This document shows positions 1-61,976 of a stretch of 64,000 nucleotides of DNA, piece after piece (position 1 is the stretch's first letter; each line of letters begins with the position of its first letter). The translations under genes and the position numbers were made by a program. The notes beneath the pieces were generated by a model. That model was not told the origin of the DNA. It did not search any database and worked only from the letters and a program-made list of their open reading frames with translations. Origin of the DNA: Convolutriloba macropyga (lineage: Eukaryota); contig NC_134474.1 of assembly GCF_964194025.1 (NCBI RefSeq), positions 21,948,001 to 22,012,000 of the forward strand, read 5' to 3'.

Positions 1-135
1 TGTATGTATGTTTTTGTGTATGTATTTGTATGTATGTATGTATGTATGTATGTATGTATGTATATGTAAATGTATGTATGTATGTATAAAAGTATGTATG
101 TATGTTTGTATGTATGTATGCACGTGTGTATGTAT
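1..135. repeat. (TGTA)n tetranucleotide microsatellite
   Basis: Imperfect TGTA/TATG repeats visible directly; they generate the spurious MYVCMY ORF at 70..276. Confidence 0.95.
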
Positions 136-181
136 TCGATCTCTCTGTTTTTACGTGTTCATAATTGTAAGTTTGTGTTAA

Positions 182-253
182 GGCAGGATGGCGCAGGGGA
201 AGCGCGCTGGGCCCATAACCCAGAGGTCGGTAGATCAAAACTATCTCCTGCTC
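182..253 (+). tRNA. Initiator tRNA-Met (CAT) gene or recent pseudogene
   Basis: 72-nt GGCAGGATGGCGCAGGGGAAGCGCGCTGGGCCCATAACCCAGAGGTCGGTAGATCAAAACTATCTCCTGCTC; anticodon arm CTGGG-CCCATAA-CCCAG, iMet-type T-loop ATC-AAAA, acceptor stem GGCAGGA/TCCTGCT, T-run just downstream. Departs from the iMet consensus at G1 (normally A1), T-loop G>A and a C discriminator. Confidence 0.8.
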
Positions 254-552
254 AATCTTTTTACATAAATTTATAGATTTTTTTGTATGCATATGTGTAC
301 CACAGTTGAAATGTTTTACTTAGAAAAACCTGATTGGCTGGGATTGGCTTTATAAACAACTAGAGATCTCTGATGGTTCGTAGGTCTAGTTTGGGTGTGG
401 TTGGTGTAGGTGCGTGGTGTGTGTGTGTTTGGGTGTTTGCGTGTGTGTGTGCATGCATTGTTGTGTATGTTTGTGTTGATTGTAATTGGCTGATGTTTAG
501 CTTAGTGTTTGGGGTGTGGCGGTGAGATGAATGTTGTTGTTTATCACACCAA

Positions 553-950
553 ACGTGTTTCACAACTTCTCTTATTGATTAAAAGTGAAATAGCGTTGAA
601 ATTTTTTGGACCCCATTTTCATAAAATTTCACATTGATTAAAGCCATAAACTTGACAAAAAATTTTTAGACCCCATTTTGCAAAAAATTTTACAAGTTAT
701 TGTCCCCCTATGGGACTAAAATTTCGATTTTCGAAAAAAGTGTTTCCGACAACTTTTTTCACTCACAAAACATGTTTCACATTATTTCACATTGATTAAA
801 GCCAAAAAATCAAGAAAAATTTTTTAGGCGCCATTTTTCAAAAAATTTTATAAGTTATTGTCCCCCGATGGGACAAAAATTTCAATTTTCGAAAAAGGTG
901 TTTCCGACTACTTTTTTACTCACAGAACATGTTTCAAACTAGTTCACATC
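553..950. repeat. Tandem ~160-bp repeat (2 full + 1 partial copy), probably the interior of a non-autonomous DNA element
   Basis: ttcacattgattaaagcc...gttattgtcccc...gtgtttccgac...catgtttca recurs at about 627-785 and 786-945. Confidence 0.8.
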
Positions 951-1018
951 TTTTAGAGACAAAAACAATAAATTTTTGTGAAATACATTTTTTTTCAGAA
1001 AAAAAATAGGAGCTGATC

Positions 1019-1205
1019 AGAACCACAACGGGGGGGGGAGACATTATGTATTAAGATAGGGAATGTAGAAATTGTCCCCCTAGGGGGGCACTTAGGGGGA
1101 CATTTACTGCGAATTTGCGTTAAATGTCCCCTAAGTGTCCCCCCTAGGGGGACAATTTCTGCATTCCCTATCTTAATACATAATGTCCCCCCCCGTTGTG
1201 GTTCT
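1019..1205. mobile_element. Near-perfect ~187-bp palindrome (MITE/foldback-like)
   Basis: Arms AGAACCACAACGGGGG...GGACATTTA / TAAATGTCC...CCCCGTTGTGGTTCT (~87 bp each) around a ~14-nt loop; a diverged arm copy lies at about 1823-1885. No clear TSD. Confidence 0.75.
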
Positions 1206-1208
1206 AGT

Positions 1209-1703
1209 NNNNNNNNNNNNNNNNNNNNNNNNNNNNNNNNNNNNNNNNNNNNNNNNNNNNNNNNNNNNNNNNNNNNNNNNNNNNNNNNNNNNNNNNNNNN
1301 NNNNNNNNNNNNNNNNNNNNNNNNNNNNNNNNNNNNNNNNNNNNNNNNNNNNNNNNNNNNNNNNNNNNNNNNNNNNNNNNNNNNNNNNNNNNNNNNNNNN
1401 NNNNNNNNNNNNNNNNNNNNNNNNNNNNNNNNNNNNNNNNNNNNNNNNNNNNNNNNNNNNNNNNNNNNNNNNNNNNNNNNNNNNNNNNNNNNNNNNNNNN
1501 NNNNNNNNNNNNNNNNNNNNNNNNNNNNNNNNNNNNNNNNNNNNNNNNNNNNNNNNNNNNNNNNNNNNNNNNNNNNNNNNNNNNNNNNNNNNNNNNNNNN
1601 NNNNNNNNNNNNNNNNNNNNNNNNNNNNNNNNNNNNNNNNNNNNNNNNNNNNNNNNNNNNNNNNNNNNNNNNNNNNNNNNNNNNNNNNNNNNNNNNNNNN
1701 NNN
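1209..1703. other. Assembly gap (N run)
   Basis: Run of N. Confidence 1.
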
Positions 1704-3699
1704 AAATAACTTAAATTTTTTTCAAAAACATGAAGGACACTTTTCGCTTTGTGTTAGAAAATGAAGTGTCCCAGCCCGTTGTAATTTGACAGAAAAAACT
1801 GCGTTGCAAAAAATGTCACAAAATTGTCCCCACTAGGGAGACACTTTATGCATTCCAATCTTATTACATATTGTCCCACCCCTGTCAGCTTCTTATACTA
1901 CTGTTGACATGAATTGTATACATATATTTAAGAACGTACACATTCCTGGAGACAAAAAATCTGTTAATAACGAATATTGTGATAAGCAATTTTTATCATC
2001 CAATAATAAGATTGATATTCTTTGTAATTGATATCTAAGGAAAATAGATTGAATAGGTAAAAGACCATTCGAACTTACAACAAACATGAATTGTTCACAC
2101 AATTGGTTAATTAGGGATCAGACAATTGATCAGGTTGCTCACATGACATTAAACAAAAAGGATTCATTTTTTTAAATCAATTATTATAAACACTGTAAAG
2201 CAACTGTTTGGAAAATGCAAGTTTAATCAAACTGAATTAACTTTCAAATTGGTGATGTTTGTGTTGAGAGGGGATTGGGACGTACACATATCGCAATTAA
2301 CAAACTAACAGTTCAAGGTTTAATTGCAGAATTACACAAAGATAAAATAATTGATAACGAGGCACAATAACGAGTGGTGGCGCATTATTGCCTTGATCAC
2401 GAAGATTTAATGAAAGAATGAGAAAATTTTTTTACTATTGGAAACGGAAGAGCCTAGCGCACCACCTTTTACTGAATTTGAACTGATACCTAATTCTAAT
2501 CTATCAAACATAGCTGACCAGTTACTGAAAGAAAAAGTATTAGCTTATAATAATTTTAACACAAAAATTAACAGTATAAAGTATTAAAAATTATTATGAA
2601 TTTGAGACTTTGAATTTTAGTAAAATGGCAGATAAAAGTCATTATAGTAAAATAGAGGAAAAAAAATTGTAACATTTCGGAGATAGCAGAAATGATATCA
2701 GCTACAATTTGAGCAGTAACCTCATTAGTGTTGACTGAAATTAGAATACCACATTCCATTCCAACTGCCTTTCAATTGTCAATAATTGTTAAAACTAAGA
2801 CACCATTAAAAAATATAAAGTAGTCACAGATATATATTCTGTCCAAATAGTTTAGTAAAAATTTTAACCACTTATATAAAAAACCAAAAACAAGAAAATA
2901 TTACGGAAAATTCTATAGATAAAAATATGATGAACAAGTTAAAATTTATGACAAAGCTAAAAAGAAACTGAAATCAAATTTAATTGTTTATTCTAAAATT
3001 TCTGGATATCAAGATGTTTAGTGAAAACCTTTAGTTAGTGTTACAATTACCCCTTAGATTTTGTGTCCTTGTACCTTAGTATAAATCGTTACATTTTTTT
3101 AAATTCTAGACGTTTACCTGTAGTATAAGTTTGATTATGCAGGAGTTGAAGGTAATACTTTTCCAGGATGTTTAAATAAAATTGATATAACAAAATTGCT
3201 TGCTATTTCTAATGCTCACTGCTTTCTTCCGAAAACAATCGCTGCTTTACCTATCTATATTCTTAAAGAAATATTTCAATCATCAGCTTCCATTGTTTCA
3301 TCAGACACAGTCAGTAATTTATTCCTTTTCTTGTTTTACATGTACCTTTAACATCTTGCTTTTGATAGAGTTTGTTTACTCCAACAATAATAGTTTTACC
3401 TGACAATCTTCTGCTACAAACGTAATATGACTTAATTTACACCTTTTAAACTGTGATACTAAATTTTAATGAAATACTCGACAAAAAAGGTGTTAAAACC
3501 ATTTAAGTATAACCCTTTTTGTAAAAATGATTCCTAAAGCAAAACCAGAAATAAAAAGTGAAGGTCAACTTAAAGTTTAACTTATAAAAAACTACAAAAA
3601 TATCAAATATATAAGTTTGCAACTACGTTGATACGTAAAAACTTTTCGAAGGTCAGGAACCTGCTGGGATGAGAAATGGACCTTTCGTCAAATACGCTA

Positions 3700-4560
3700 C
3701 AAAAGATTCAGTTACATTCAATTCACTTGCATCATGAGTTTGTCCATATACATTATTATTTTTAAATGCAATAATTACTTACAGTGGACTTTGCATTCCA
3801 CATTCCATTTCAAGATCAAAAGAGAAGTTAATTGCATAAGATACATTTTATACTTCTCGTTTGATATTTTTGTTCTAATATTCTACATTTAAATGTACAC
3901 ACTAAGATATGTCTCTAATTCTATAATTCCACAATTGGTTACTTCCTTAGCACCAGCATTGACTCTATATACGGCTCTATTTCTACGTTTACCATTTAAT
4001 ATTGAATAAGTCCTTAACTTTATTAGATCGTTTCTAAATCAAAATGAATTCAAATAGATCACTCACCTGAACCATCAAATTCAAATATCCTCCCTTTGCA
4101 GCAACAAAATCTCTTTTAAGTTGATTTCCAACAAAATCTGATGCAATTTTATCATTGATAATTGTAAGTAACTTGTACATCGATAACTCGAAAAGTCAAT
4201 AATAAAAAATTTTCAATTGATTGTCCACCACTAGTTTCAAATCTTGCTCAACTAAATAATGCAAGTAAATCATAGTTTACAAGTTTAATTTTAACATTAT
4301 TAGCTTATATTACAGCAGCATTATCTAATAAAACAAACCCGACTTCAAGATATAGACCGTGTTTCAATCATTCTTTTCTCTTTCAAAACAATTTTAAAAC
4401 TAGTATTAATAGCATCCATTGTTGCCAGCTGATTTTATTTGTTTTTCAGTATCTTACTTTAATATATCATTAATAGAATAAAAAGCTAAATCTCCGATGA
4501 AACCTTTTGTTGTTGGGAAAATGATAGCAACTATGTTGACAGTTTTGTTAACGTTGAAGT
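3700..4560 (-). pseudogene. Polinton-type major capsid protein remnant, copy A (C-terminal part deleted)
   Basis: Colinear with copy B 7620-8500; many stops and frameshifts. Confidence 0.45.
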
Positions 4561-4599
4561 TATTTTTAAATTTGAAGGACAATTAAGAAAGAGTTGAAA

Positions 4600-5250
4600 T
4601 CATTCAAATAAACAAAATTGCTAGCTACACCAAATTTGAACTGAATTGAACTTCGACTTTCATCTTTGACATCGAATTCAATATATTCAATTCTTTAAAT
4701 TGTTAAATTCTGATAAAACATATTGGTCAAAACTTTGGCAATTATTTTGCCTGATGGTTCAAAAGATTAGTACCGTCCAAAGTATATGTTTGTTTACAAA
4801 AATCTTTAATTCCAGATACAATGTTTCACTGAATATTAATTCTCTTGAATCCCAAAATGTCAACTGTTTTATTTGCGGTTCATTTGCTTGTTTTTTTTTT
4901 GTTTGGTAATTCCGCGTAAGTACGCAGGCGAGTTTTTTTCAACAAAATTAATTACACCTTGTTTTACTGCCACTTAACATTTCTTTGTATTTTTATCTAC
5001 ATCTATTATAGTTGCAAAATTTTTCGTGCTTTTATTTCCTCTTCTATTTCTAGATAGTTCACAATTACCAGCTGTTAAATCAAAGATTAAACCATTATAA
5101 AAAGAAGCTTACAAGTATAGGCGACATTAAAAGAAGTATACTAACCTTCATTTCTACCTGTTATTCTTTCTGTCAGTTATCCTTAGCACTGAATAAAAAA
5201 TGATAATCAGCTAAAACCTAAATTTCAAGTAATGAAGTAATGAGTATAGG
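4600..5250 (-). pseudogene. Polinton-type minor capsid (penton-like) remnant, copy A
   Basis: Colinear with copy B 8560-9200 (shared ENSxAYLRG and KxVDI segments). Confidence 0.45.
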
Positions 5251-5329
5251 TTCATTGAACGAAAGCAATATTTTGATCCTATAATTTTAAAACAAAGTGC
5301 ATTGTTATCTTTAGTTTTATATCACTCTT

Positions 5330-5920
5330 TTCTTTAAAGTTCACATAAAAAAATTTGTCTGTCTGTTTTGTTACATAATCGTAACGTTAATTATGTGAGA
5401 TCTTTCCAAATAATTTTAGTTAAAAATTATTACTTTAAAATTTAATAACATTGCAACTACGTGGTTCATCACAAACTTGTATTACATAAACAATGAAAAC
5501 TATAAAAATATTTTCTCTGTAAAGTATGAATTTATTATCTTGCCTTTCAGTGGTGCATCATCATCTATCATTAGAAAGCTTTCGTTGTTATCTAATACTT
5601 TTCTTAGATTCTTTTTGTAGATCTTTAATATCAAAATTATCAATAACATCTGCATCAGCTTGCCATGTTTCACTTTCACAAACAACATCATCATTTTAAT
5701 TAACTGTGAGTCCATACCTGTCTTATTGTTTATTGAATAGTTGTGTTAAGAGCTCTGTTTTGTAACACTCATATGGACCAGGCATCATTCATCTGAAAAA
5801 ACCATGCGAAAAAAATTTCTGTCTTTTTCTTGAAATTTTCAGATGTTTATTTTCAAAACAACTCCATTGAGCCGATTTTGAGATTGTCTATGTTCTTATC
5901 AATGCGATTGACTTTCTCTT
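5330..5920 (-). pseudogene. FtsK/A32-like packaging ATPase remnant (ATPase-1, copy A)
   Basis: Degenerate Walker A GPYECYKTELL near 5750-5785; Walker B FLMIDDD followed by INSYFT in ORF 5500..5715. Confidence 0.65.
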
Positions 5921-7299
5921 AACAAATTCTTTTACGTAGTAGCAATTTTAATACTAAGAACCTACCGCACCACCTTTTACTGATGTTGAACCCAAACTTT
6001 ATTTTAATCTATCAAACATAGCTGAACAGTTAAAAAAAGAACAAATGATAGCTATTAAAAAAATTTACAGTAAAGATAACAGTATAAAGAATAATAGAAG
6101 TTATTATGAAGCTGAGACATTGAATTATAGTAAAAAGATATAGATATTAGATAGTTGTTTTAGATGTAGACGATAGATAGTAAAATAGAGATAGGGACAA
6201 TTTTGTTAATGCGGAGAAAACAGAAATGATATCATCATCAACAGCTACAATTAGAAAACCAACCTCAAAAGTGTTGACTGGAATGAGAATACGAAAATAT
6301 CACTCCAAATGCATTTGATACAGCATTAATTCATCTCTCACTTTCAAAAACTATTAAAACTAGGTCACCAATAAAAAGAGGTACTTGCAGATATAGTCTA
6401 TCCAAACTGTTTAGTGATATGTTTAATCTTTTATAAAAAAAAACAAAAAATGATAATATTGCAAAAAATTTTATGGATGAAAAAAATAGAATGAATTAGT
6501 TAAAGTTTATGACAGAACTCAGAAGAGTCAGAACATAAAATTGATTAATTTTACTTAAATTTTTGAATATCAAGATGTTTGCTGGAAATATTAATAATAT
6601 TACGCTTACCCATTAGATACTTTCTCTTTGTACTTTATTATAAACCTTTACATTGTTGTACAACTTCAATACCCTTCCCTGTAGTCGCACACTGATAACT
6701 GAAGGAGTCGAAGAAAATACTTTTCTTGGATGTTTAGTTGAAATTGATATACCAAGATGAATGGCTCTATATGATGCTTACAGGATTCTTGTCTGCTCTC
6801 TTTCCAAAAACAACGCTGCTTTACCTACTTATATTCTTACAGAATTATTTTAAGACTTGTCTTCAATTTTTGCATCAGCTATTGATTTTTCTCGTTTATT
6901 TTTACATGTACTTTTAACATCTTGCTTTCGTTAGAGTTTGTTCACTCCAAGTATACTAGTTGTACCTGAAATTTTCTCTCTACAAACGCAATATGACCTA
7001 ATTTAAAAATTTTGTAATTGTGGCTTTGTATTATAATAAATTAATTGACAAAAAAGTGGTAAAACCTGTTAAGTATAACCCTTTTGTAAACTAATACCTA
7101 AAACAAAACCAGAATCAAAAATTTTAGGTTAACCTAAAGTTGAACTACAAAAAAGAAGCTATATATTTATTTTACAAAAAATGAGATAAATAATTTTGTA
7201 ACTACGTTGAGACCTCTGATTTTTTCAAAGATCAGGAACCTGTTGGGATTATAAATGGACCTTTTGTCAAATTAGCTGATTAGATTAATCATAATAATA

Positions 7300-8500
7300 C
7301 TATCACTACTAGCACTCATATTTCTTTATAGCTTCAACTAATGCATGGCAAAAAATATTGTTAAAAATGTAGTTTAACTGAAAAGGTTGCAGACCAAAGT
7401 GTTCATTTTGATATCTCAAAGATAATGGATCAAAGATATTTGTGCTGTAACTACTTTTAAAGTTTCTACGATTTATATATGAACTAATGCTATGTGGCAA
7501 TCCATTGTAATCTCTATTAAAGTTAGTAATTTCTCTGAGAGCGCCATTATAATTGATCATTCCAAATTAGCTTTCATTCCATCTTCAGGATAAAACTCAC
7601 TCCCAATCTTACACAAGTTTCAGTTACATTCGTAACATCAAATTCACTTGCATCATGAGGTTGTCCATTTACCTCATTATTTTCAATTTCAACAAAAATT
7701 TATTGTGGTTTTCTATTCCACTTTCATTTCGAAGATCAAAAAAGAAATTAATTGCATTAAGTACATTTTTATACTTCTATTTTATAATATTTTGTTCTAA
7801 TATTCTAATATTGCATGTACACACAAAGATGTGTCTCTATTTCTATTGTTCCATAAATGAAGACTTCACTCGTACCAGCAATAACCATAATTACGGCTAT
7901 ATATTTATTTGTATAGTATAAAATTAGCATAAGTCCTACTCTTTATTAGATCGCTTCTAAATCAATATCGAATTCAAATTGATCACAATGAACCATCAAA
8001 TTCATATGTAGCTCTTTTTGCAGCAATAACTTTTCATTTAAGTTGATTATCTCTAATACTTTGATTTCCAAAAAAATCTGATGCAAATTTACCATCAGTA
8101 ACTGTGATTAAATTGTACATCAATATCTTAAATCGACAATGTAAATTTTTTCAATAATTCTTTCGTCAATAATTTCAAATTTAATTGAACTAACGAATGA
8201 ACGTGAAACATAGATTACAAGTTTAATATCAACATCATTAGCATAAATTCCGCCATCATTTTCTAATAGAGCAATTTCAATTTTAAGATATGAAACGCGT
8301 TTCAATCATTCTTTTGTCTATTAAGAATAATCTTTCTCTATAATAATAAATTACTAGTATCAACAGCACTCATTGTTGCAAGCATTATATTTGTAGTTTA
8401 GTCTCTTACTTTAATATATCATTCATAACAAACAGCTGTATCTCCGTTGAAGTCGTTTTTGTTGGCAAAAATGCCACCACCTTTGTTGACATAGTAGTTA
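7300..8500 (-). pseudogene. Polinton-type double jelly-roll major capsid protein remnant, copy B
   Basis: N-terminal-like SYLKIEIALLENDGGIYANDVDIKLV (ORF 8120..8305) and C-terminal-like YINRRNFKSSY...IFD...LRYQNE...PFQL (ORF 7309..7560); lies downstream of ATPase and minor capsid. Confidence 0.55.
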
Positions 8501-8559
8501 AAGTTGAGGTTAACTTAAAGATTGAAGTACTGTTAAGAGAAAAATTATTCAAATGAAAA

Positions 8560-9200
8560 AAAACGCTAATTTCACAAGATTTGAACTGAATTGGAATTCC
8601 ATTTTCATATTTGTCACTGAATTCATTATAATTAACTTTCTTTTGTTACATTTTGACATCATATTGGTTGAGGGTTTGTCAATTATATTGCCTGATGGTT
8701 CAAGAGATAAGTATCTGTACGATTACAAAAATTTTGAACTGAGATAAAATGTTTCACAGAATTTTAATTGTCTTGATTTCCATAATGTCAACAATTTTAT
8801 TTGCGGTTCAACTGCTTCATTTTTTTGTTTCCTAATTCCGCGTAAGTATGCAAGCGAGTTTTCTACAAAAAAACTAATTACACCTTGTTTCAATTCCACA
8901 TTACAATTCTTGTTGTTTTATTATCTACATCTATTATAGCTGCAAATGTTTTCGCGCATTTATTTCCTTTGTTTTTTCAGATAGTTTAAATTTACCAGCT
9001 GTTAATTCAGAGATTGTACCATCGTAAAGTAAAACTTAAAAGTATAACCAAAACAATTATATCCACATTCATTCCTATATGTAACCTTAACCTGTCAGTT
9101 ACAATTAGCACTGAATAAATACTGATATTCTGAGAAAACCTAAATTTGACGTAATGAGTTTAGATTAATCGAATTAAGTCGTTTTGTTTTGTTTTATAAA
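8560..9200 (-). pseudogene. Polinton-type minor capsid (penton-like) remnant, copy B
   Basis: Minus-strand fragments ELTAGKFKLSE...IDVDNKTT...ENSLAYLRG...KIVDIMEIKTIKI...EPSGNII resemble the polinton single jelly-roll pattern; heavily frameshifted. Confidence 0.5.
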
Positions 9201-9239
9201 TATAAAACAACGTGTATTTTTAATTTTAGTTTTAGATCA

Positions 9240-9960
9240 TTCTTTTCTATGAATTTCAGATAAAAAAATGTTGTCCGTTCGTTTAGTAAGACGATTGTAA
9301 TGTTAGTTCAGTGAGATCTTTTCGAATAACTTTTCGTTTACCATTAATACCTTAACTTTTAACAATTATGCAATTGTGTGGTTCATAACAAACTTAAATT
9401 GCATAATCAAGCAAAACTATACAAAATATTTTTTTCTGACTTAAAAACTCCTTTTAAATAGTATTGAATGATTTACCTTTTTGTTGAAGTAGAATAATCA
9501 GGTTATTGTTGTCTCTAACGTTTTTTCTATCAGATGAAAAATGTTTTCATTGAGTTAAATCACATTAAAGTTTTTGTGTCTACATCTAAAAAAGTATTTA
9601 TTTTTTATCTGGTCTTTTAGAGGTACATCATCAAGTAACATTAGAATGATTTCAGTGTTATCCAATTCTTCTGTTTTAGGTAGATCTTTAATATCATGAT
9701 TACCTTTAAGTTCGGCATCAGCTTGCCATGTTTCGTTTTTATAAATAACATCTTCAAATTGGTTGAATAATGGTCCAATCATATATAATTTATCAAACTC
9801 TAATTGTGGAAGTGGACATCATTCGTCTGAAAATAACTGGGATTCAATTTCTCTCCATCTTTTTGTATTTTTCGGCTGTGTTTTTGCAAGACAACTCCAT
9901 CGAACAGGTTTCGAGATTGTCTAAATCTATGTGTTTGACGTTCTCTTAACAATTTTTTTG
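9240..9960 (-). pseudogene. FtsK/A32-like packaging ATPase remnant (ATPase-1, copy B)
   Basis: ORF 9555..9782 has IILMLLDD (Walker B) and YFFRCRHKNFNVI (RH arginine-finger motif of A32/polinton ATPases). Confidence 0.75.
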
Positions 9961-10210
9961 TTCCATGTAGTAGCAACTCCTTCGATTTACTATGATTCTC
10001 TATCAGATCGTTTTCTTTGATCCGATTCTATATCAAAGCATTCTTTTTGAAAACTGGTGGTGTTTCAATCACAATTATGATATCAAAACAAATTTTATTT
10101 TTCGATCTTTTTCCGGAAACAACAAATACACCATGTCTGCCTTTATTTAAACACAATTTTTAAGTTTACATTTATGTTTGGATTGGGGTCAAGGAAAAAT
10201 GTACGTGTTT

Positions 10211-10236
10211 GCTCTCTCTCTCTCTCTCTCTCTCTT
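10211..10236. repeat. (CT)n microsatellite
   Basis: Seen directly. Confidence 0.9.
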
Positions 10237-10449
10237 AATAATTTCAATTGCTTTTAAACTCATTTTTGTTGATCTATATTTTTTTCACAATCACGTGTGG
10301 CCTTATTCTCTATTTTGCGCTCCATAAAAAAATCGTCCAATGATTAAATAGACAATTTTTTAAACGTTTTTTGGTTTCTTTGTTGTTTTTCTATTAGTCT
10401 TATGTAGAATACATTATACTTACAGATAAATATCGAAATCTGGTTTTAA

Positions 10450-11002
10450 AAATGTTTTAGAGGTTATGATGAAAAAGAACTAAGAGAATTCAAACTTGAA
10501 ACGTCATCATTACACACTCTGATATAGTTCATCAGTGTCAAGCAAGAATGTTTTTACGCAAAAACAATAATAGTTTGATGAAGAAAACAAAAATAAAACT
10601 TGAGAGATTGGGATAGATACGATTGCGGAACTAAAATTATTTTGCGGCATAAGTAATTTTGCGGGATTTGCGCTTGTGTTAGATGACACGGATGATAGAT
10701 TAAATAAAACAATAGTTCAGTATTTTACAGCTGGTAGAAAGTTTACAAATTATTGTTATGTGACAAAAACCAGCACAAATAGATTATATGTCAGGATGAA
10801 ATTTGAAATAAAATATTTTATTCAATATAATGATCCCGCATGTTTGTTAACTTTGTTGCTATATTCGGTTTTAATTGCAAATTTGATTAAAAATTTTTTG
10901 AATTACAAACATGGTATAAAAAGGTACGACTCAAGAGAAGAGTCATTCATTGTTGTTGATAAAACAATGGGTTTTGATTCTAAGGTAGGAGAAAAAAATT
11001 AG
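10450..11002 (+). pseudogene. Second, distinct FtsK/A32-like ATPase remnant (ATPase-2, copy B)
   Basis: LVLDDTDDRLNKTIVQYFTAGR (Walker B plus YFTxGR motif) at the start of ORF 10676..11002; the Walker A is better preserved in the duplicate at 12372. Confidence 0.6.
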
Positions 11003-11019
11003 ATTTCTAGAATTCACAC

Positions 11020-11800
11020 TTTTCTCTGAAGTTTTGTATTTCTGTTTTGTCAGATAATTGTAATGTTAGTTCTATGAGATTTCTCCAAATAACTTAGTTT
11101 ACCATTAATACCTTAACTTTTAATAACATTGCAACTGTGTAGTTCATTACAAACTTATATTAAATATGCAAAAAACGTTACATTTTTTTCTCTGTCTTAA
11201 AAATTGCTCATAAATAGTATTAAAAACTTAACCTCTTTGTTTAAGTAGAAAATAAGGTTATTGTTGTCTCTAACGCTTTCTCTATCAGATGAAAAAAAAG
11301 TTTTCGTTTGGATAAATCCTATTGAAGTTTTCGTGTCTACCTCTAAAAAAGTGTTTATTTATTATCTTGACTTTTAGAGGTACATCATCAAGTAAATTAG
11401 AGCTTTTTCATTGTTCTTCATACTTCTGTTTTATGAAGATCTACAATATCAAGAATACCTATAAGTTCTGCATCAGATTGCCATTTTTCCCTTTTACAAT
11501 TAACATCATTATTTTGATTGACTGTTGTTACAATCATATGTAATATATCAAACTCTAATTGTTGGAAGAATCGATGCTTTAAGACCTCAGATTTAAAACA
11601 TTTACTTGGAACAGACTTCTTCCGACTGAAAAAATCTGGGATTCAATTTCTCTTTTTTCCTTGTAATTTTCAGATATGTATTTGCAAAACAACTCCATTG
11701 AACAGGTTCCGAGGTTGTCTAAATTCTTATCTATGTGTTTGACTTTCTCTCAGCAAATTTCTTGTTCCATGTAGTAGCAAATCCGTTGATTAATTATGTT
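11020..11800 (-). pseudogene. ATPase-1 remnant, copy C
   Basis: Colinear with 9250-9960; degenerate Walker A VPSKCFKSEVL near 11580-11612. Confidence 0.6.
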
Positions 11801-12289
11801 GTTAAGAGCATATTTATTATGAAAACCAATACTAAAGAATCTATGATGATTCTCTATCAGATAGTTTTCTTTGATTTGATCCTATATCAAAAGATTCTTT
11901 AAAAAAAGAGTGGCGGTGTTTCAATTACATAAACATCAAAATAAATACTATTTTTCGGTTTGTCTCTTAAAACAACAAAAACACAATGTCTTTACTTAAA
12001 CCCAAGTTTTAAGTTTCAATTGTGATTTGATTTGGGTCATTAAAAATGTAAGTGTTTGAGCTCTTTTAATATGTTCAATTGCTTTTAAACTTTCCTTGAT
12101 AAACTATATCTTTTTTCACAATTACGTATGGCATCGTTCTCAATTTTTTATTTTCTAGAAAAAACTGTCCCAAGTTTATATAAACAATGTGTTACACTTT
12201 TTGTTTTTCATGTTTCTTTGTTGTTTTTCTATTAGTTTTATGGGGAACATTTTACAATTACAGACCTAATAAATATCAAAATCTGGTTG

Positions 12290-12680
12290 TAAAAATGTTT
12301 TGGAGGTTTTGATGAAAAAGAACTAAAAAAAATTCAAACCGGAAAAGTCATCATTACACCTTCTTTTATATGGCGCATCAGGGTCAAGCAAAGATTATTT
12401 TGTTGCGTAAAATCTGTAAAAGTTTGATAAAGAAAACAAAATTGAATTTTGAGAGATTGGGATAGCTACGACTGCGGAGTTATTAAAATTACTATCCAGT
12501 ATTAGTAATTTTGCATCTTTCTAACGTTAAGGCTCTATTCGGTTTTAAAAACAAATTTGATGAAATATGTTTAAATTACAAACATGGTTTATTAAGGTAG
12601 GACCCAAGAGAAGATTCATTCATTGTTGTTGATAAAATAATGGTTCATGATTCCAAAATAGGAGAAAAAAATAGATGCCT
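12290..12680 (+). pseudogene. ATPase-2 remnant, copy C (internally deleted)
   Basis: SSLHLLLYGASGSSKDYF = degenerate Walker A (GxSGSGKT), GGC codon at 12372; colinear with 10450-11000. Confidence 0.6.
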
Positions 12681-13139
12681 GCAATTTAAAAAAATAATAA
12701 TAAATGATGAAATAACCAGATTAATAAATTATTTAAAACTGAGATAAGTTAATGATGTTGAAAATAGTGTCAACGTTTTGAGGCCAATGTTATTCGTTCA
12801 GGCAATGGACCAATAAAGTTTTTTAAAAAGTTTTTCGGCATTTTAAGTTTCATATTTTCATCCATTTTTTCCAAAAGATTCTAATTTAAAACCATTGTTA
12901 ATATAGTAGGCATTTTAAATATAATTATGAAAAATCTTGGAACAAAAGTTTAGGGGTTTAGCTTTAGGGAACATTAAGCGTCACCAATTAAGGAATATAA
13001 GGCTACACAACAAGTTGAACCACCCGTTTTAAGCCTGAAAAAGCAGGAGTTTTTTTTTTTTAAAAAAGTATGTGAATAAAAGCTGAGGTTTTTGAAGAAA
13101 TTTGAAAAGTATTTAGACTTTGTGCACTGAGAGAGACAT

Positions 13140-14620
13140 CTTTCTTTTAAAGATGTCAGTCAATTCAAATTAGATAATTTACCTTATGCAGACCCTCCGA
13201 CGTTTTTATCTACTGGTAGGAAGAACAATGATTATCTTCTCAACAAATTAAATCCCCTCCCTCATTGATAGTGGAATTATTAATCTAATTAAAGAAGGAC
13301 AAAAAAATCTAGAGGAAAGAATTTATTTCTATGCGTTAACAGGAAAAAGGGTTTTGTTAAAGATGTCAGTCATTTCAAGTTATGTCATTTATCTTACGCA
13401 GACACTAAAACTACTTGTAAGAAAAAAATAATTGTTAGGGACTCATTGATTTCATATCCCCTGATTAAAAGAAGAAAAATTAAGTTAATCAAAGATGGTT
13501 CTAATTTAGAAGAAACATTTTAGGTTTTTACTCATTAAAAGGGACTAAGGGTTTGTTTAAAGGTGTCCGTCAATTCAAGTTAGACTATTTATCTTACGCA
13601 GACACTAAAACTGGTTTTTTAATTAGTAGGAAGCATAATCATTGTCTACTCATTAGATAAAAGGTATCCGTCAATTCAGATTAGGTCAATTATCTTACAC
13701 GGACACTAAAACATTCTTATCTACTAGTAAGAATTATAAGGATATTCTAATCCAGAGGAAAAAATTTAGTTTTTAACACGTTAGCATGGAATAAGGGCTT
13801 TGTTAAAGATGTCAGACAATACAAAATTGATCAATCACATTACGCAGACCCTAAAACGGTTTTATTAAATGTTCAGAAGTGTAATGATTATCTACGGAGC
13901 AAAATAGATCCCTTGAATTAATGGGGAAACATTGAACTAATTAAATATGAACATTCTAATCTAAAATCTCTTTTTTATACATTAAGAGAGAATAAGGGTT
14001 TTGTCAAAGATGTTAGTCTTTTCAAATTATATCATTTATATTACGCAGATCCTAAAACAGATTTATCCACTGGTAAGGAGAATAAAGATTATCTATTCAA
14101 CAAATTAAATCCCTTGGTTGATAGGGGAAACATTAAATTAATTAAAAAAAGACATTCTAATCTGGAAAATTTAATTTAGTTTTTCACACATTAACAGGGA
14201 CTAAGGGTTATCTTAAAGATGTCAGTCGATTCAAGTTAGAGTATTTAATTTACACAGACACTAAAACTGTTTTTTAATAAGGAGGGAGCAGAATGGTTGT
14301 CTACTCATTAAATAAAATCCCTTGATTGATAGAGGGAACGTTAAATCAATAGAAAAAAATACTCTAAGACAGAAGAAAAAAATATTAGTTTTTAACACAT
14401 TAACAGGAAATAAGGGTTTTGTTAAAGATGTCAGAAATGGCAAGTTCGATCGTTTATCTTATGCAGACACTAAAATTGGTTAATCTACTTTTAAGAAGTA
14501 TAATGATTGCCTACTCATTCTAGATTCTAATCCTGGAGATTCTAATCCAGGAAAAAAAATTACTGAGGAAATGTTAAGTAATCAAAGAAGGATCTTCTAC
14601 TCTAGAAAAAAATTATTTTT
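13140..14620 (+). repeat. ~205-210-bp tandem array (8 units), probably a decayed ORF of ~70-aa repeats
   Basis: AAGATGTCAG-like unit starts at about 13149, 13359, 13560, 13661, 13806, 14007, 14216, 14425; units translate as GFVKDVSxFKLxxLSYADxKT...NPLxDRGNIKLIK...SNLE. Confidence 0.75.
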
Positions 14621-14639
14621 TTACTCGACTTCTTGCAAC

Positions 14640-16860
14640 TCCAGATGGCGTGCTGTCCATATTTGAACGGACTTTCTGGTTTTTTTCTTTTGTAGAACCT
14701 TCAGCGTTGTTTGCGAAAGTCCTTGTTTTTGATTTGGAAAGTTGTCTGAGCTAACAATTCTTCATGCATAAAAGCTGTTGATAGTAACCAGTCTTTGGAA
14801 ACAATCAAATTTGCCGCCAGTAGCCGATGGTCCTGTAGGTGTCGCAGCCATTGCCCTTTAAGCTGAGGGTGAAGTTTTCTCGTTGCTCTAACTCCTTCCA
14901 TTTCCAGATCAAGCTGAGATCCAAGCCGCGTCAAAATGTTAACGGTATTTGTTACTGTGTTTGCAAAACGATCAGATCTACTGGAATCAGAGTGTTACTG
15001 GTAGGTGGCTGTACATCTTTTTAGATTAAGCTTCGACTTTGACTCTCAGTCTGCCAAACCTTTTGCAAAGTACGTCCCAAGCTTGACAATATAGCTGAGA
15101 GCTGAAACCCAATCCAGATATTGCCTCTTTTGACTGACCAGCAAATCTAATCTTAAAGCAAAGCAAATACTGCATTTCTCAGTACCGCTTAGCCGTTTTT
15201 GATGCACAATGATATCAATTATTTCTGCCACTCGAGCCACTCCAATTGGTCTCCTGAGAACTCCGTTAACTTTTATAATCCTCTTGGATCACCAATCGTT
15301 TGGTAAACTACTGGTGGGGTAGTTTGGCATATCGCAGCTTGGCATTGACTGTTACAAGATTTGTGCTCGGGACTTTGACTTCTCTGTCGGTTTTGGAATG
15401 CTGACGTTTTTTGCTGTTGGAACGCCTTAGGCAAATGCGTTTGTGTTTCTGTCACCATAATGATTTAGGGACTTCTTGTTTCCATGAATACTCGAGTCAG
15501 GCAATTGCATTGAGAAGAGTAGTACAGCCGTTTTGAACAGCGGGGGTGGTTTTCGGGTAGGCGCTCCAAATTTTTTGCAACGGTCCTGTGTGTCATTTCT
15601 AGGAGGGTCGAGCAGAGCACGTGGAGATTGTGGCCGGCTGGGGCCAGACTGTTGGGTGACTGAATCTGCCAAGCCTGCCGTTTTCTCTAGCTTATGTCTT
15701 GTGTCTTGATCTAACACTTTCTATGTCTTCTGCCTGCGACCTAGATGCTCTTGCACTTTTTTTCGTTTGTTTTCGAGGTCTCGCTCATGTTGTCTCACAT
15801 GTAGTTCGTCTCGCTATAGTCTCTACTTTACTTTAGATGTTAATTGTGTCCCTGTTATCTTTGTTATCGTTGCTGTAGAGGTAGATCTAATTGCTCTTGC
15901 CGTTGACATAGTTCATCAATTTTTCTAGCTCATATTTTTGCGAGCTCCACTTCAATCTCGCGCCTTCTTGGTGAACGTGAGAAAACAATACTCGGTTTTT
16001 TCCTGCTTCGGTGTGCATTAGAATGCCTAGAAGAGACCTCAATGTTTTCTTCGAAATGTTCCGTCACTCAGTTTCCCATCTCAACTAACGTTTTGTTTAG
16101 TTCCTTTTCACTTGAAGAGATTGATGATGCTAGAGATCTGATTTCCACTCTCTGTGGTTTGGCAATGCTGTTTAGTTAGACCTGGATAGAATCTCCAATC
16201 TTTACTAGAAATGTTAAATCCTACAACTCAAACGTCCGGTGTGCAAGTTGAGTAATCTCTGTGTTTCTTTGGTCTAGTTTTATGATCTTTTCTAATGTTA
16301 AACAATCTTTGCTTCAGAGAGTCACTTAGGTTCTCTGCTTCGCAATCATTATTCACAACGGACAATTCAGCATGAATTACCTCACATTCTTGCACCAGTT
16401 GGTGCAGTCGGAGAGTATCTTTCCCATGGATAACAATTTCGTTGCGGCACTGTTCAATTTTTCCAAGTTCTGGTATTTGTTCGACCAAAAAGTCGAGTCT
16501 TGTTCTTTTCGCCCAAATTTCGCTCAGTGTTAGCGCTGAAATTTTCCGAATAATTCGGCTTCAGTAGTCGCCTCTGTCGCTATCTGTTTTCTTCGAGGTC
16601 ATCGTAAGTCTCAAAAAAATATCGATATGCTCTTTCGGCAGACACTGTTTTTTTCTGGGCTAAGTGACTATCCACATTAGCAAGATGTCTGTCAAAAATC
16701 TTGAGCAATTCACCTTGCTCATTTTATAGTCTCTTGAATTGTCCTGACATGTTGAAGTCAGAAGTTTCCTAATGTCTGTTGGGGTTCCTTCCAGCAATCT
16801 TGAGGATTTCGTTCTGCTCCACCAAATTGAACTGAAGATTCGTTGCTGCTCGTGTTGATG
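14640..16860 (-). pseudogene. BEL/Pao LTR-retrotransposon gag remnant (DUF1759-type), 3'-truncated
   Basis: Minus-strand KLTEFSGDQLEWLEW (~15230-15275), EMQYL...GQSKEAISGLGFSSQ, FGRLRVKVEA, KLHPQLKGQWLRHL; many stops. Confidence 0.8.
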
Positions 16861-26504: not shown

Positions 26505-26770
26505 CCCAGGTTTAGGTGCGCGACCCTAGACCGCTCTGATCAGACCATTTGGGTCGCACACCGGTGGAGTGGTGCGACACAAAATAGATGGTCTGGGAAA
26601 CGTTTGAGTCGCACGATGGTCTGGACAATGGTCGCACTACGGTCTGATTAGAGGGCAAAGTCGTGCTATAGTCTGATCGCAGGTCGCACAAAAGTCTGGA
26701 CAATGGTCGCACTACGGCCCGATCAGAGGGCAAAGTCGCACTATGGTCTGATCTGAGGTTGTACCAGGAG
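26505..26770. mobile_element. CCCAG-initiated end of a probable non-autonomous DNA transposon with GTCGCAC/GGTCTG subterminal repeats
   Basis: About 10 gtcgcac...ggtctg units at ~20-bp spacing following cccagg; the same motif block heads each unit of the downstream array. Confidence 0.45.
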
Positions 26771-29700
26771 AGGCACGTGCCAAAAACTGTAACATTAGGA
26801 AACCAAGTCATAATGTTGATTATATAGATGTAATTCAATGGTTAGGAAATGGATGACTTTTTCACGGTAGCAAAAGAAGATTCGTGAAGCAAATCTCACG
26901 AAAGTTTTAACTGTTGTCAAGGAACAACAGTGGGCAAGGGTAGCCCATGCATATCGTGCCAAAGTAACTATAACTCAAGGGTCTTTTCTGAAACACCACC
27001 AACACTGGTGTCAGTGAAGCAAGCTGATTAGTTTGCTTTTCTGACTTCCGGCCACAGCACCACCAACACTACACATTCAATATTAACTGAAGGTGGAACA
27101 CCGCACAGAGGTCACATGAAAGTCTTGACAATGGTTGCACTACGGTCTGACAGAGGGCAAATTCGCACTACAGTGTGATTATAGGTCGCATGAGAAGCGT
27201 TTTCTGAACGAAATATAGCTGTAGTGTCCGAAAAGTCTCATAGTCAAGATGAAAATCATGATCTGTTTTTTTACCATCCTCCTTTTTCATTCCTGGCTTA
27301 GAAGCAGCAGCGGCGGAGCTAGATAAAACAACTAAAAGTGAACCGAGCAGATCACGAAAAAAATCTGGCTCGTAACGCTCTCTCCACAACAAAACAAATA
27401 AAACAAAACTAAACATGCACGTGGTCTGTCAAATGAGTAAAAAAGATGTAGGAGTTGGTAGCTTATGTAGAACTTATTCACACACCTTGAATCATCTTGC
27501 CCTCGTTGATAGACCAAGATGATGTAAGAGTGGGGGTTAATTTGCTATTTACGACCCCCACTCTTAAATCATCTTTACATCATCATATTTCTTACATCAA
27601 CTCCGCTTGGCAGCCCTTTGCAGCCAAAAATGATGTAAAGGTTTGGGGCCTCATTTTCCTAAAAATTGTTTTTTATTGCAACCCCACTCATACAACATTA
27701 CACAATTTTGGCAGTTTCAGCCTTACAACATTTTACAACCTCTCAACAAGTTATCATTCACCCTTAAATCATTTTACCCCCTTGGCAGCCCAACTCTTGG
27801 ACCATTTTAGCCTCTTTCAACAAATTACACCCCCCTCTTACTTTATTTACCCCTGGAAGACCTAATCTTACATTGTTGCAGCCTCCCCACATATTTTAAA
27901 ACTGACAGTCTTCAACACCAAACCTGTGTACACTGAGCCAGTTCTCCTTAGCCTCAAGAACATCAATGCTTGCCCAATTTTTGACGATCAATCTATGTGT
28001 ACACTATTTGCTAGAATTACCCTCTGAACAAATCGCCCATAACTCTTTCGCCGTTTTGGAGCTCACTCTCGCATCACACTTTTGCTCATCTGAGATAAAA
28101 CTTCAATTTCTTCCAATTGCATACCCCTTTTTCTTTGAAAATTTGATCACAGGGAGTAATTCCTTGAAAGCTGTCCTTTTGTAGCCCCACGTTCACATCA
28201 TTTCTGTCCCCTCACTGTTGCATCTGCATCTGCCATTGTTAAATATTCTCTAATTTTCTGATCTTTGGTGTCACGTTATCTGAGAAAATCTTTTCGTCTA
28301 GATTTAAAATGATCATATTTTAAATTATATTTTGATTTATGAACTTATAATAATAAATTGATAGAATCTGATTGAACTTCTTTGCCAATATCGTGTTACC
28401 AAAGAGAGTACATCTTACATTTCATCTCTTTTGATCACCAATACAGTCATTTGTGTTTGCCTTGTTGAGGACTGCTATCGTCTGGTCACAAGTCGCACAA
28501 AAATCTTGACAATGATTGCACTACGGTCTGATCAGGGGGGAATGTCGCATCATAGTCTTTTCATAGTTCGTATGAGAAGTGGTTTTTGAACAAAGTTTGG
28601 CTGTAGTATCCGAAAAAGTCTAATAGTCAAAATAAAAACCAACTTTTTGAGTTTTTGCAATATATGATCTGTTTTTTTACCCTACTCCTTTTTCGTTCCG
28701 GGCTTGGGCCAGAAGTTGCGGAGTTACATAAAACAACTACAAGAGAATTGAACAGATCTTTAGTTTAAAAAAAGCTGGTTCAAAACGCTCTCTCCAAATC
28801 AAAACAAATAAAACAAAACTAAACATGCAAGTGGCCTGTCAAGAGGGTAAAAAGACGTAGGAGTTTGTAAATTATTTAGAACTTATCCCCAGACTCTTAA
28901 ATCATCTTGCCCTCGTTGACAGACCAAGATGATTTAAGAGTGGAGGTTAATTTGCTATATACGCCCCCACTCTTACATCACATTTACTTCATCATATTTC
29001 TTACATCATCTCCCCTTGACTGCCCCTTGCAGCAAAAAATGATAAAAAGTGTTTTGAGTTTCATTTTCCTGAAAATTGCCTTTTATTGCAGCCCCACTCA
29101 TACAACTTTTTACATCCTCTCAACCAGTTACCCATCACTCTTACATCATTTTATACCCTGGAAGACCTAATCTTGCATTGTTTAAGCCCGCCCCTGTACT
29201 CGAAAACTGACAGTCTGCAACGCAAAACCTGTCTACACTAAGCCAGTGTTGCATCGCACTTTTGCTCATCTGAGATAAAACTTCAATTTCTTCCAATTGC
29301 GCACCCCTTTTTCTTTGAAAATTTGATTACTGGGAGTAATTACTTGAAAGCTGTCCTTTTGCAGCCCCACGTTCACATCATTTCTGTCCCCTCACTGTTG
29401 CATCTGCATCAGCCATTGATAAATATTCCCTTTTTTCTGGTCTTGGGTATCACGTTATCTGAGAAAAAATTTGAACTCATAATAGTAAATCGATAGAATC
29501 TGATTGAATTTTTTTGCAAATTTTGTTTTACAAATGAGAGTACAGCTTACATTCCCTCCCTTCCCTCTCTTGTGATCACCAATACAGTCTTTTGTGTTTG
29601 CCTTGTTGAGGACTGCTATCGTCTGATCAAAAGTCGCACGAAAGTCTTTATAATGATCGCACTACGGTCTGATCAGATGGCAAAGTCGCACTATAAGGTG

Positions 29701-31904
29701 ATCATAGGTTGCACGAAAATCTGAGAATTGGTCACACTACGGTCTGATCCGGGGGAAAAAGTGCATCATAATCTTTTCATAGTTTGTATGGGAAGCGGTT
29801 TTTGAAAAAAATATAGCTGTAGTATTCCAAAAATTCTTCTAGCTTAGTTAAAGACCAATTTTTGAGAATTTGCATTATATGATCCATTTTTTGCCCTCCT
29901 CGTTTTTCGCTGCGAGCTTGGGACCAGCAGACGCGGAGATACATAAAACAACTACAAGAGAATTGAGCAGATCACTAGGTTAAAAAAACCTGGTTCAAAA
30001 AGCTCTCTCCAAATCAAAACAAATAAAACAAAACTAAACATGCATGTGGTCTGTCAAGGGGGTAAAAAAGATTTAGGAGTTTATAGTTTATGTAGAACTT
30101 ATTCCCACAATCTTGAATCATCTTGCCCTCGCTGACAGACCAAAATGATTCAAGAATGGATGTTAATTTGTTATTTACGTCTCCCACTCTTACATCATAT
30201 TTACATCGTCATATTTCTGATGTCAACCCCCCTTGACCGCCCTTTGCAGCCAAAAATGATGTAAGAGTTTTTGGCATCATTTTGCTAAAAATTGCCTTTT
30301 ATTGCAGCCCAACTAATGCAACATTACACAATTTTGGCAGCCTCAATTTTACAACATTTTACATAATCTCAACAAGTTACCCTCACTCTTATATCACTTT
30401 ACTCCCTTGGCAGCCGGACTCTTGGACTGTTTTAGCCCCTCTCAACACATTACACCCCCTTCTTACATCATTTACCCCCTGGAAGACCTAATCTTACTTT
30501 GTTGCAGCCTCTCCCCCCCCCCCCTGAACTTGAAGACTGAAAGTCTTCAACACCAAAGCTGTGTACTCAAAGCCAATTCTCCTTAGCCTCCAGAACATCA
30601 ATGCTTGCCCAACTCTTGGACCATTTTAGCCTCTTTCAACAAATTACACCCCCCTCTTACTTTATTTACCCCCTGGAAGACCTAATCTTACATTGTTGCA
30701 GCCTCCCCACATATTTTAAAACTGACAGTCTTCAACACCAAACCTGTGTACACTGAGCCAGTTCTCCTTAGCCTCAAGAACATCAATGCTTGCCCATTTT
30801 TTGACGATCCATCTATATGTAAACTATTTGCTAGAATTACCCTCTGAACAATTCGCCCATAACTCTTACACCGTATTGGAGCTCACTCTTGCATCGCACT
30901 TTTGCTCATCTGAGATTAAACTTCAATTTCTTCCAATTGCATACCCCTTTTTGTTTTAAAATTTGATTACTGGGAGCAATTACTTGAAAGCTGTCTTTTT
31001 GCAGCCCCACGTTCATATCATTTCTGTCCCCTCACTGTTGCATCTGCATCTGCCATTGATAAATATTCCCTATTTTCTGGTCTTGGGTATCACGTTATCT
31101 GAGAAAAACTTTGAACTCATAATAGTAAATCGATAGAATCTGATTGAATTTTTTTGCAAATTTCGTTTTTACAAATGAGAGTACAACCTACATTCCCTCT
31201 CTTGTGATCACCAATACAGTCTTTTGTGTTTGCCTTGTTGAGGACTGCTATCGTCTGATCAAAAGTCGCACGAAAATCTTTATAATGATCGCACTACGGT
31301 CTGATCAGATGGCAAAGTCGCACTATAAGGTGATCATAGGCTGCACGAAAATCTGAGAATTGGTCACACTACGGTCTGATCCGGGGGGAAAAAGTGCATC
31401 ATAATCTTTTCATAGTTCGTATGGGAAGCGGTTTTTGAAAAAAATATAGCTGTAGTATTCCAAAAATTCTTCTAGCTTAGATAAAGACCAATTTTTGAGA
31501 ATTTGCATTATATGATCCATTTTTTGCCCTCCTCGTTTTTCGCTGCGAGCTTGGGACCAGCAGACGCGGAGTTACATAAAACAACTACAAGAGAATTGAG
31601 CAGATCACTAGGTTAAAAAAACCTAGTTCAAAAAGCTCTCTACAAATCAAAACAAATAAAACAAAACTAAACATGCATGTGGTCTGTCAAGGGGGTAAAA
31701 AAGATTTAGGAGTTTATAGTTTTTGTAGAACTTATTCCCACAATCTTGAATCATCTTGCCCTCGTTGACAGACCAAAATGATTCAAGAATGGAGGTTAGT
31801 TTGTTATTTACGTCTCCCACTCTTACATCATATTTACATCGTCATTTTTCTTATGTCAACCCTCCTTGACCGCCCTTTGCAGCCAAAAATGATGTAAGTG
31901 TAAG

Positions 31905-36728: not shown

Positions 36729-36730
36729 CA

Positions 36731-61930: not shown

Positions 61931-61976
61931 ATTTCGAAAAAAATTTTTTCCAACATTTTCCCTAATAAAATACACC

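What the first reader, a model, noticed from the sequence alone, without database searches (positions are those of the whole stretch)
9240..12680. Two different FtsK/A32-like ATPase genes arranged back-to-back in one polinton-like element
Seen: minus-strand ATPase-1 (degenerate GPxxCxK(T/S), LLDD, YFxxxRHxN) and plus-strand ATPase-2 (LLYGASGSSK, LVLDD, YFTAGR) diverge from a ~500-bp spacer, and the pair is duplicated together. Known: canonical Polintons are described with a single packaging ATPase. Inference: a lineage with a two-ATPase (possibly heteromeric) packaging motor or a repurposed paralogue; this is the best candidate here for an undescribed system.
Basis: partly seen in the sequence, partly recalled or inferred. 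Interest (0 to 1): 0.7.

Follow-up and report, generated by a model that had tools for sequence, protein, structure and literature searches.

The report
Two-ATPase Maverick with capsid-less palindromic relative
This broken stretch is a fossil of an abundant virus-like transposon family that carries two different DNA-pumping-type enzymes: one is fused to the capsid-maturing protease and likely packs DNA into particles, and the other, predicted to sit in a membrane, is shared with mirror-symmetric relatives that have no capsid genes, so it likely does a separate job.

Summary
Window 9.3-12.8 kb is a decayed, tandemly duplicated piece of a high-copy Maverick/Polinton family (A). The '500-bp spacer' is the protease gene. 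In younger copies it is fused in frame to ATPase-1 (32 of 39 copies), and ATPase-2 lies head-to-head with it in 77 of 78 loci. Both ATPases keep A32/FtsK-type motifs; ATPase-2 is not an SF3 helicase and not a nested insertion. They are not sister duplicates. ATPase-1 resembles the single ATPase of a sister family. ATPase-2 has a predicted N-terminal membrane helix, and its closest relative is the only ATPase of family D. D elements are 13-15 kb palindromes with pPolB, Maverick termini and 6-bp target duplications, but no capsid, protease or integrase gene (15 of 15 loci). Best reading: ATPase-1 is the packaging motor, and ATPase-2 is a separate membrane-anchored DNA pump (inferred). A heteromeric motor is less likely. 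Ten literature searches found no report of this; the original Polinton paper and Repbase could not be read. No earlier scan note held it.

The parts
9328..9812 (-). ATPase-1 remnant, copy 1 (C-terminal domain of the protease-ATPase fusion in younger relatives); frameshifted, Walker A region damaged
   Evidence: 83 bits; 68 bits to family-A ATPase-1, 16 to family B
10003..10339 (-). cysteine protease (adenain/Ulp1-like) remnant, copy 1; fills the supposed spacer
   Evidence: 29 bits; shuffles none at 5 bits or more
10370..11002 (+). ATPase-2 remnant, copy 1: hydrophobic start (seen in the translation), Walker B and arginine-finger region in ORF 10604-11002; cut at the duplication junction
   Evidence: 51 bits
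11140..11645 (-). ATPase-1 remnant, copy 2
   Evidence: (73 bits)
11861..12144 (-). protease remnant, copy 2
   Evidence: 34 bits
12200..12765 (+). ATPase-2 remnant, copy 2: hydrophobic start and Walker A; internal deletion of about 175 bp removes Walker B
   Evidence: (39 bits)
8558..9278 (-). minor capsid (penton-like) gene remnant, same strand as ATPase-1 and MCP; penton label rests on position and homology across families A, B and C, with no Pfam hit
   Evidence: 84 bits
7330..8442 (-). double jelly-roll major capsid gene remnant
   Evidence: relative hits PF21738 E 1.2e-21
1903..5945 (-). further duplicated block of the same element: MCP (3665-4458), penton-like (4621-5363), third ATPase-1 remnant (5556-5798), two small accessory genes

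Best explanation
The window holds a dead, duplicated piece of a Maverick family that encodes two distinct A32/FtsK-type ATPases which likely do different jobs: ATPase-1, fused behind the maturation protease, likely packs DNA into the capsid, while ATPase-2, predicted to be membrane-anchored, likely acts as a separate DNA pump that does not need the element's own capsid genes. SHOWN: conserved head-to-head linkage; in-frame protease-ATPase-1 fusion in younger copies; retained catalytic motifs in both ATPases and the protease; ATPase-2 plus a downstream zinc-finger gene form a cassette shared with family D; D lacks capsid, protease and integrase genes yet has Maverick termini and 6-bp target duplications; A and D have exchanged pPolB end modules. 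INFERRED: the fusion brings the protease to the packaging vertex or is self-cleaved; ATPase-2 forms its own ring on a membrane and moves the linear element DNA across it (nuclear envelope or an entry/exit membrane), as membrane-bound FtsK/SpoIIIE/TraB pumps do (recalled); D is integrated by a helper integrase; the D palindrome is the dimer intermediate of a replicon with one hairpin end.
For: Linkage: ATPase-2 lies head-to-head with the protease in 30 of 30, 20 of 20, 15 of 15 and 12 of 13 loci. All 15 whole or near-whole family-A elements mapped carry both ATPases, protease, integrase and pPolB; 14 of 15 carry MCP. Fusion: in frame in 34 of 41 rows and stop-free in 25; after removing two duplicate loci, 32 and 23 of 39. 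71 of 120 database homologues have protease and Walker A motifs in one chain. Class: ATPase-2 hits Pox_A32 at E 4.5e-8, 33 bits, cut-off 22.8. ATPase-1 is 28% identical over 220 aa (E 1e-16) to the sole family-B ATPase, itself Pox_A32 E 2.7e-16. Motif retention: Walker A K 62 of 63, Walker B DD 63 of 64 each, arginine finger 61 of 64 in ATPase-2; 21 of 21, 20 and 22 of 22, 22 of 22 in ATPase-1; protease H/D/Q/C 62/61/58/58 of 64. Orthology: ATPase-2 vs D ATPase hhalign 99.6%, 29% over 251 columns, against 89%, 100 columns for ATPase-1 vs ATPase-2; the tree joins ATPase-2 and D at 95/95. Membrane helix: hydropathy 2.38 (ATPase-2) and 3.01 (D); none above 1.3 in the B and C ATPases; helix 3-22 is the best-supported part of the model. 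D: no MCP, penton, integrase or protease by profile in 5 of 5 and 10 of 10 loci; 6-bp target duplication in 4 of 4 tested. B (4 of 4) and C (3 of 3) carry one ATPase and a separate protease.
Against: No functional or expression data. Selection on ATPase-2 is only modest: net dN/dS 0.41-0.57 between subfamilies, against 0.24 for the protease. In D it is about 0.45 against an arm-vs-arm baseline of about 0.63, so the method is biased low. The linker is built of 6-nt repeats, so frame would be kept by slippage alone. ATPase-1 scores below the Pox_A32 cut-off (19 bits in one copy, not listed in a second); its top Pfam hit is PF00910 over the Walker A region only. One D ATPase gave no Pox_A32 hit, although D loci passed the cut-off. 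The tree has only in-genome sequences and warns of long branches. Both structure models are poor (pLDDT 45 and 37). D could use ATPase-2 for packaging into helper capsids, which would make it a packaging motor after all. Whether the fusion existed in the window's own lineage cannot be read through the decay.
Confidence: 0.55

Rival explanations
1. ATPase-2 is a second, membrane-anchored packaging motor. Family D is a satellite that keeps it to load its own DNA into capsids made by a helper Maverick, and family A carries both motors after capturing or sharing this module.
For: ATPase-2 is of the packaging-ATPase class. D has no capsid or integrase genes but has Maverick termini and target duplications, so it already depends on a helper. 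A and D exchange end modules: D-type pPolB in 4 of 15 A elements. D length (13.4-15.4 kb) is near A length (15.2-17.4 kb), as a shared capsid size would require.
Against: No reason is evident why A should keep two motors for one capsid across three subfamilies; the membrane helix is absent from the single ATPases of B and C; no particles are known.
Confidence: 0.25
2. ATPase-1 and ATPase-2 form one heteromeric packaging ring, with ATPase-2 supplying the membrane anchor.
For: Head-to-head linkage in 77 of 78 loci; both keep an arginine finger.
Against: The ATPase-2 orthologue persists without ATPase-1 in 15 of 15 D loci; ATPase-1-like enzymes stand alone in B and C; the two are only about 25% identical over about 108 aa.
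Confidence: 0.12
3. ATPase-2 is an accessory passenger with a host-directed or largely relaxed role, unrelated to moving DNA.
For: dN/dS is higher than for the protease; it carries expanding low-complexity inserts and a long unique C-terminal part; no relatives outside this lineage were listed.
Against: All catalytic motifs are shared between A and D at about 28% identity; D keeps it among only four or five genes.
Confidence: 0.08

Closest known systems
Animal Mavericks/Polintons (Polintoviricetes; Krupovic 2014 PMC4028283, Barreat and Katzourakis 2021 PMC8097293, Starrett 2021 PMC8502044, Jeong 2023 PMC10748475; passages read)
   Same: pPolB, RVE integrase, double jelly-roll MCP, minor capsid, cysteine protease, A32-like ATPase, 128-378 bp TIRs with AGTAGT/AGTAAT ends, 6-bp target duplication, 15-17 kb.
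   Different: The passages describe one ATPase and a separate protease. Here the protease is fused to ATPase-1, and a second, longer ATPase with a predicted membrane helix is conserved.
Capsid-less Polintons in Krupovic 2014 Table S1 (for example Polinton-2_HM 42.5 kb, Polinton-3_HM 38.8 kb, Polinton-1N1_DR; supplement 1 read)
   Same: Polinton-type elements without MCP, penton or protease are already known.
   Different: Those are listed without an ATPase. Family D keeps pPolB and a membrane-anchored ATPase, lacks integrase, and is a full palindrome. Whether the listed elements are palindromic is not stated in the table.
pPolB exchange among nematode Polintons (Jeong 2023, passages) and PLV end-module turnover (Barth 2024, PMC11296320, passages)
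   Same: Replication/end modules are swapped onto one morphogenesis module, as in 4 of 15 family-A elements.
   Different: Here the exchange partner is a capsid-less palindromic element of the same genome.
Membrane-anchored FtsK/HerA-superfamily DNA pumps (FtsK, SpoIIIE, Streptomyces TraB); recalled, not tested
   Same: N-terminal membrane anchor followed by an FtsK/HerA-type P-loop domain.
   Different: ATPase-2 is closer to viral A32 (Pox_A32 E 4.5e-8, FtsK_SpoIIIE only E 0.02), has one predicted anchor, and lies in an animal element.

Membership tests
Maverick/Polinton (family A, relatives of the window copy) | pPolB gene | tested here: met
   DNA_pol_B_2 E 5e-12 for the D-type enzyme; the A-type matches it at about 28%; none found in window 1-16000 itself
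Maverick/Polinton (family A) | RVE integrase | tested here: met
   PF00665 E 3.6e-8, above cut-off; in 15 of 15 mapped elements; not found in the window remnant
Maverick/Polinton (family A) | double jelly-roll MCP and minor capsid | tested here: met
   PF21738 E 1.2e-21; the penton-like gene has no Pfam hit and is assigned by position and cross-family homology
Maverick/Polinton (family A) | TIRs and 6-bp target duplication | tested here: met
   TIRs in 7 of 7; exact 6-bp duplication in 4 of 7 at my coordinates
Maverick/Polinton (family D) | integrase and capsid module | tested here: not met
   absent in 15 of 15 loci; D is a dependent relative, not a full member
A32/FtsK-HerA ATPase (ATPase-2) | Walker A, Walker B ending DD, arginine finger, polar residue after the next strand; Pox_A32 profile | tested here: met
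   motif definitions recalled (Iyer 2004 not held)
A32/FtsK-HerA ATPase (ATPase-1) | same motifs and profile | tested here: met
   motifs kept; own Pox_A32 score below cut-off; linked through the family-B ATPase at E 1e-16
SF3 helicase (ATPase-2) | SF3-type Walker B, B-prime and motif C (recalled); profile hit | tested here: not met
   alignment shows DD plus GRH as in the packaging ATPases; PF00910 only E 0.11
Ulp1/adenain cysteine protease | His-Asp-Cys triad with oxyanion Gln | tested here: met
   62/61/58 of 64 and Gln 58 of 64; Peptidase_C48 only E 0.029; 25-28% to the family-C protease
Membrane-anchored DNA translocase | membrane insertion, ring formation, DNA translocation | not testable with these tools
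   only hydropathy and a predicted helix
A32 phylogeny with outside polintons, virophages and NCLDV | placement among external A32 ATPases | not tested
   no outside homologues were returned

The most novel reading that the evidence does not exclude
An animal genome hosts a helper-satellite pair of Mavericks: a capsid-encoding helper with a protease-packaging-ATPase fusion, and a high-copy, capsid-less, integrase-less satellite that integrates as a giant palindrome (the dimer of a hairpin-ended, protein-primed replicon). Both keep a membrane-anchored A32-derived DNA pump that moves their DNA across a membrane or into borrowed capsids.
Probability: 0.3. Interest if true: 0.8.

Novelty: new variant of a known kind. 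Interest (0 to 1): 0.6.

Why it matters
Mavericks are described with one packaging ATPase, and how their DNA enters and leaves nuclei or cells is open because no particle has been seen. A second, membrane-anchored A32-type ATPase that is kept even by relatives without capsids points to a DNA-transport step outside capsid filling, or to a satellite that borrows capsids. The protease-ATPase fusion suggests physical coupling of maturation and packaging. Family D would be missed by screens that require MCP, penton and ATPase together (as in PMC11131425, passages read).

Tried and rejected
Complex prediction of the ATPase-1 domain with ATPase-2 residues 24-345: no answer (score 0.13, mark 0.34; alignments not used); no evidence either way. 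Structure models were too poor for fold searches; BFVD searches gave nothing reliable. The protein atlas gave no result. No RNA holder was listed, which is no evidence on expression. No relatives in viral contigs, phages or metagenome contigs. Protein searches listed only the top 120-150 hits, all unnamed and apparently of this lineage, so distant relatives are not excluded. PDB searches gave only generic P-loop hits. Rejected: SF3 helicase; nested unrelated insertion (77 of 78 linkage); in-element gene duplication as the origin of ATPase-2; assembly artefact for the window duplication (74% identity) and for D palindromes (arms 94-97% identical, target duplications). Literature searches. 'Polinton + second ATPase' and 'Maverick + two ATPases' gave 0 papers. 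Not held: Kapitonov and Jurka 2006 and Iyer 2004; Repbase was not available. The Starrett supplement was cut when stored. Of the Krupovic 2014 supplements only file 1 was read, and the .doc file cannot be read here. These unseen sources may already note a second ATPase or a fusion.

Full report
1. Observation. The window has no intact gene here, but six-frame translation shows the quoted motifs, and self-comparison shows a tandem duplication: 9281-10662 vs 11044-12514 at 73.5%, and 10838-11004 vs 12513-12676 at 82%. Profiles from natural relatives place ATPase-1 at about 9328-9812 and 11140-11645 (minus) and ATPase-2 at about 10428-10993 and 12221-12765 (plus); ten shuffles gave nothing at 5 bits or more. 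Contigs of three other DNA runs of one study cover the stretch, two of them across the junction. The supposed spacer is the decayed protease gene (29 and 34 bits). Upstream lie penton-like and MCP remnants, themselves duplicated. No pPolB or integrase of this element was found in window 1-16000.

2. The family. The window lies in a 1.18-Gb eukaryotic assembly. An ATPase-2 query gave 4307 first-look candidates, of which 150 were scored. Seven young elements are 15.2-17.4 kb with TIRs; 4 of 7 showed an exact 6-bp target duplication at my coordinates. They encode pPolB, RVE integrase (E 3.6e-8), MCP (E 1.2e-21), a penton-like gene, protease, both ATPases and a zinc-finger ORF. Eight older elements (ATPase-2 45-63% identical) keep the same order; one lacks MCP. 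ATPase-2 lies head-to-head with the protease in 77 of 78 loci. ATPase-1 fell within the short flank in 29 of 30, 20 of 20, 12 of 15 and 5 of 13. These loci were chosen by ATPase-2 hits; the 15 ATPase-1-led loci were not scored for ATPase-2 as a set. The window's ATPase-2 ORF finds family-A ATPase-2 as its best hits in the 13 loci checked (35-40%). Its penton runs with MCP and ATPase-1, unlike all 15 mapped A elements, so it is a separate, older branch.

3. The fusion. Protease and ATPase-1 are in one frame in 34 of 41 rows and stop-free in 25; two loci were duplicates, giving 32 and 23 of 39. 71 of 120 database homologues carry both motif sets in one chain. The linker is a variable Asp/Asn repeat of 6-nt units, which would keep frame without selection. 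The protease triad and oxyanion Gln are kept in 58-62 of 64 copies. Families B (4 elements) and C (3) in the same genome have a separate protease and one ATPase.

4. Two different ATPases. ATPase-2 (about 540-550 aa) hits Pox_A32 above the cut-off. ATPase-1 falls below it, with PF00910 over Walker A as top hit, but matches the family-B ATPase over 220 aa at E 1e-16. Both keep Walker A, Walker B, arginine finger and the following polar residue (motif names recalled). ATPase-2 begins with a hydrophobic helix absent from the single ATPases. Net dN/dS between subfamilies is 0.41-0.57 for ATPase-2, 0.24 for the protease and 0.02 for ATPase-1 on very small dS. These are rough pairwise values and biased low.

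5. Family D. A Pox_A32 scan exposed a further ATPase that is the orthologue of ATPase-2 (hhalign 99.6%; tree 95/95 with a long-branch warning, 30 in-genome rows). It has the same membrane helix and a weakly similar downstream zinc-finger gene (E 1e-4). It sits in 13.4-15.4 kb palindromes with arms 94-97% identical, each arm encoding pPolB, one or two small genes, the ATPase and the zinc-finger gene. Of 141 places, 76 form 38 convergent pairs, and 9 of 10 sampled singles also show a second inverted arm. No MCP, penton, integrase or protease was found in 15 of 15 loci with profiles that do detect the decayed window remnants. Four of four tested have AGTAAT...ATTACT ends and 6-bp duplications, so an integrase acted in trans (inferred). 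Four of 15 A elements carry D-type pPolB modules; one of them is 82% identical in DNA.

6. Mechanism. The most likely reading (0.55) is division of labour. ATPase-1 is the packaging motor, tethered to or released from the maturation protease. ATPase-2 is a membrane-anchored pump that moves the linear element DNA across a membrane, which explains why capsid-less D keeps it. Rivals: a second packaging motor used by a satellite (0.25), a heteromeric ring (0.12), an accessory passenger (0.08). All functional steps are inferred; none was tested.

7. Prior knowledge. Passages of PMC4028283, PMC8502044 (also section 3.2), PMC11161782, PMC3671162, PMC11131425, PMC8097293, PMC10748475, PMC4981718, PMC11296320 and three preprints describe one A32-like ATPase per element. 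The tool showed at most 12 passages per paper. Capsid-less Polintons and pPolB swaps are known. Ten searches found no two-ATPase Maverick, protease-ATPase fusion or palindromic family like D. The original Polinton paper and Repbase were not seen. Earlier scan notes held nothing on this protein.

8. Verdict. The feature is real and conserved, and the window copy itself is dead. It is a new variant of a known kind; interest 0.6.

Noticed in passing
G000 C3:32.93-32.95 Mb, C4:53.47-53.49 Mb, C6:28.68-28.70 Mb, C5:41.185-41.20 Mb, C8:27.46-27.47 Mb (L101-L102, L123-L141): Family D: recurrent giant palindromic pPolB elements without capsid or integrase; two subfamilies share the ATPase centre (about 91% DNA identity) but differ in pPolB (65-69%) and termini. 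Worth its own study.
   Followed up: partly
window 8558-9278 and 4621-5363: The penton-like gene is co-directional with MCP and ATPase-1 here, as in family B, but inverted in all 15 mapped family-A elements.
   Followed up: partly
window 61627-64000 and L227: A younger family-A element begins at the window's end (zinc-finger gene, pPolB, then integrase, MCP, penton and ATPase-1 downstream).
   Followed up: partly
window 52008-53637: Another old remnant of the same family (MCP and two small genes).
   Followed up: no
window 13147-14519: Diverged array of about 200-bp units directly after the ATPase-2 remnant; origin unknown.
   Followed up: no
L226:1987-7512 (just upstream of the window): Decayed family-C Maverick (protease, MCP, penton, integrase, single ATPase).
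   Followed up: no
L093, L103, L104 (family B): Family B carries a very long repeat-rich ORF (760-870 aa, perhaps a fibre) and small ORFs that look like U-box and repeat proteins (labels recalled); one complete copy (C11, TIRs 512 bp) showed no pPolB hit.
   Followed up: no
family-A TIRs, e.g. G000 C10:17954587-17954710: Each TIR of the commoner family-A type holds an internal imperfect palindrome of about 125 nt.
   Followed up: no
L079 (G000 C232): A lone A32-like ATPase with different amino-acid composition on a small contig; possibly a PLV or non-host sequence.
   Followed up: no
window 26600-37200 and 57100-59440: Large complex direct and inverted repeat arrays unrelated to the finding.
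   Followed up: no
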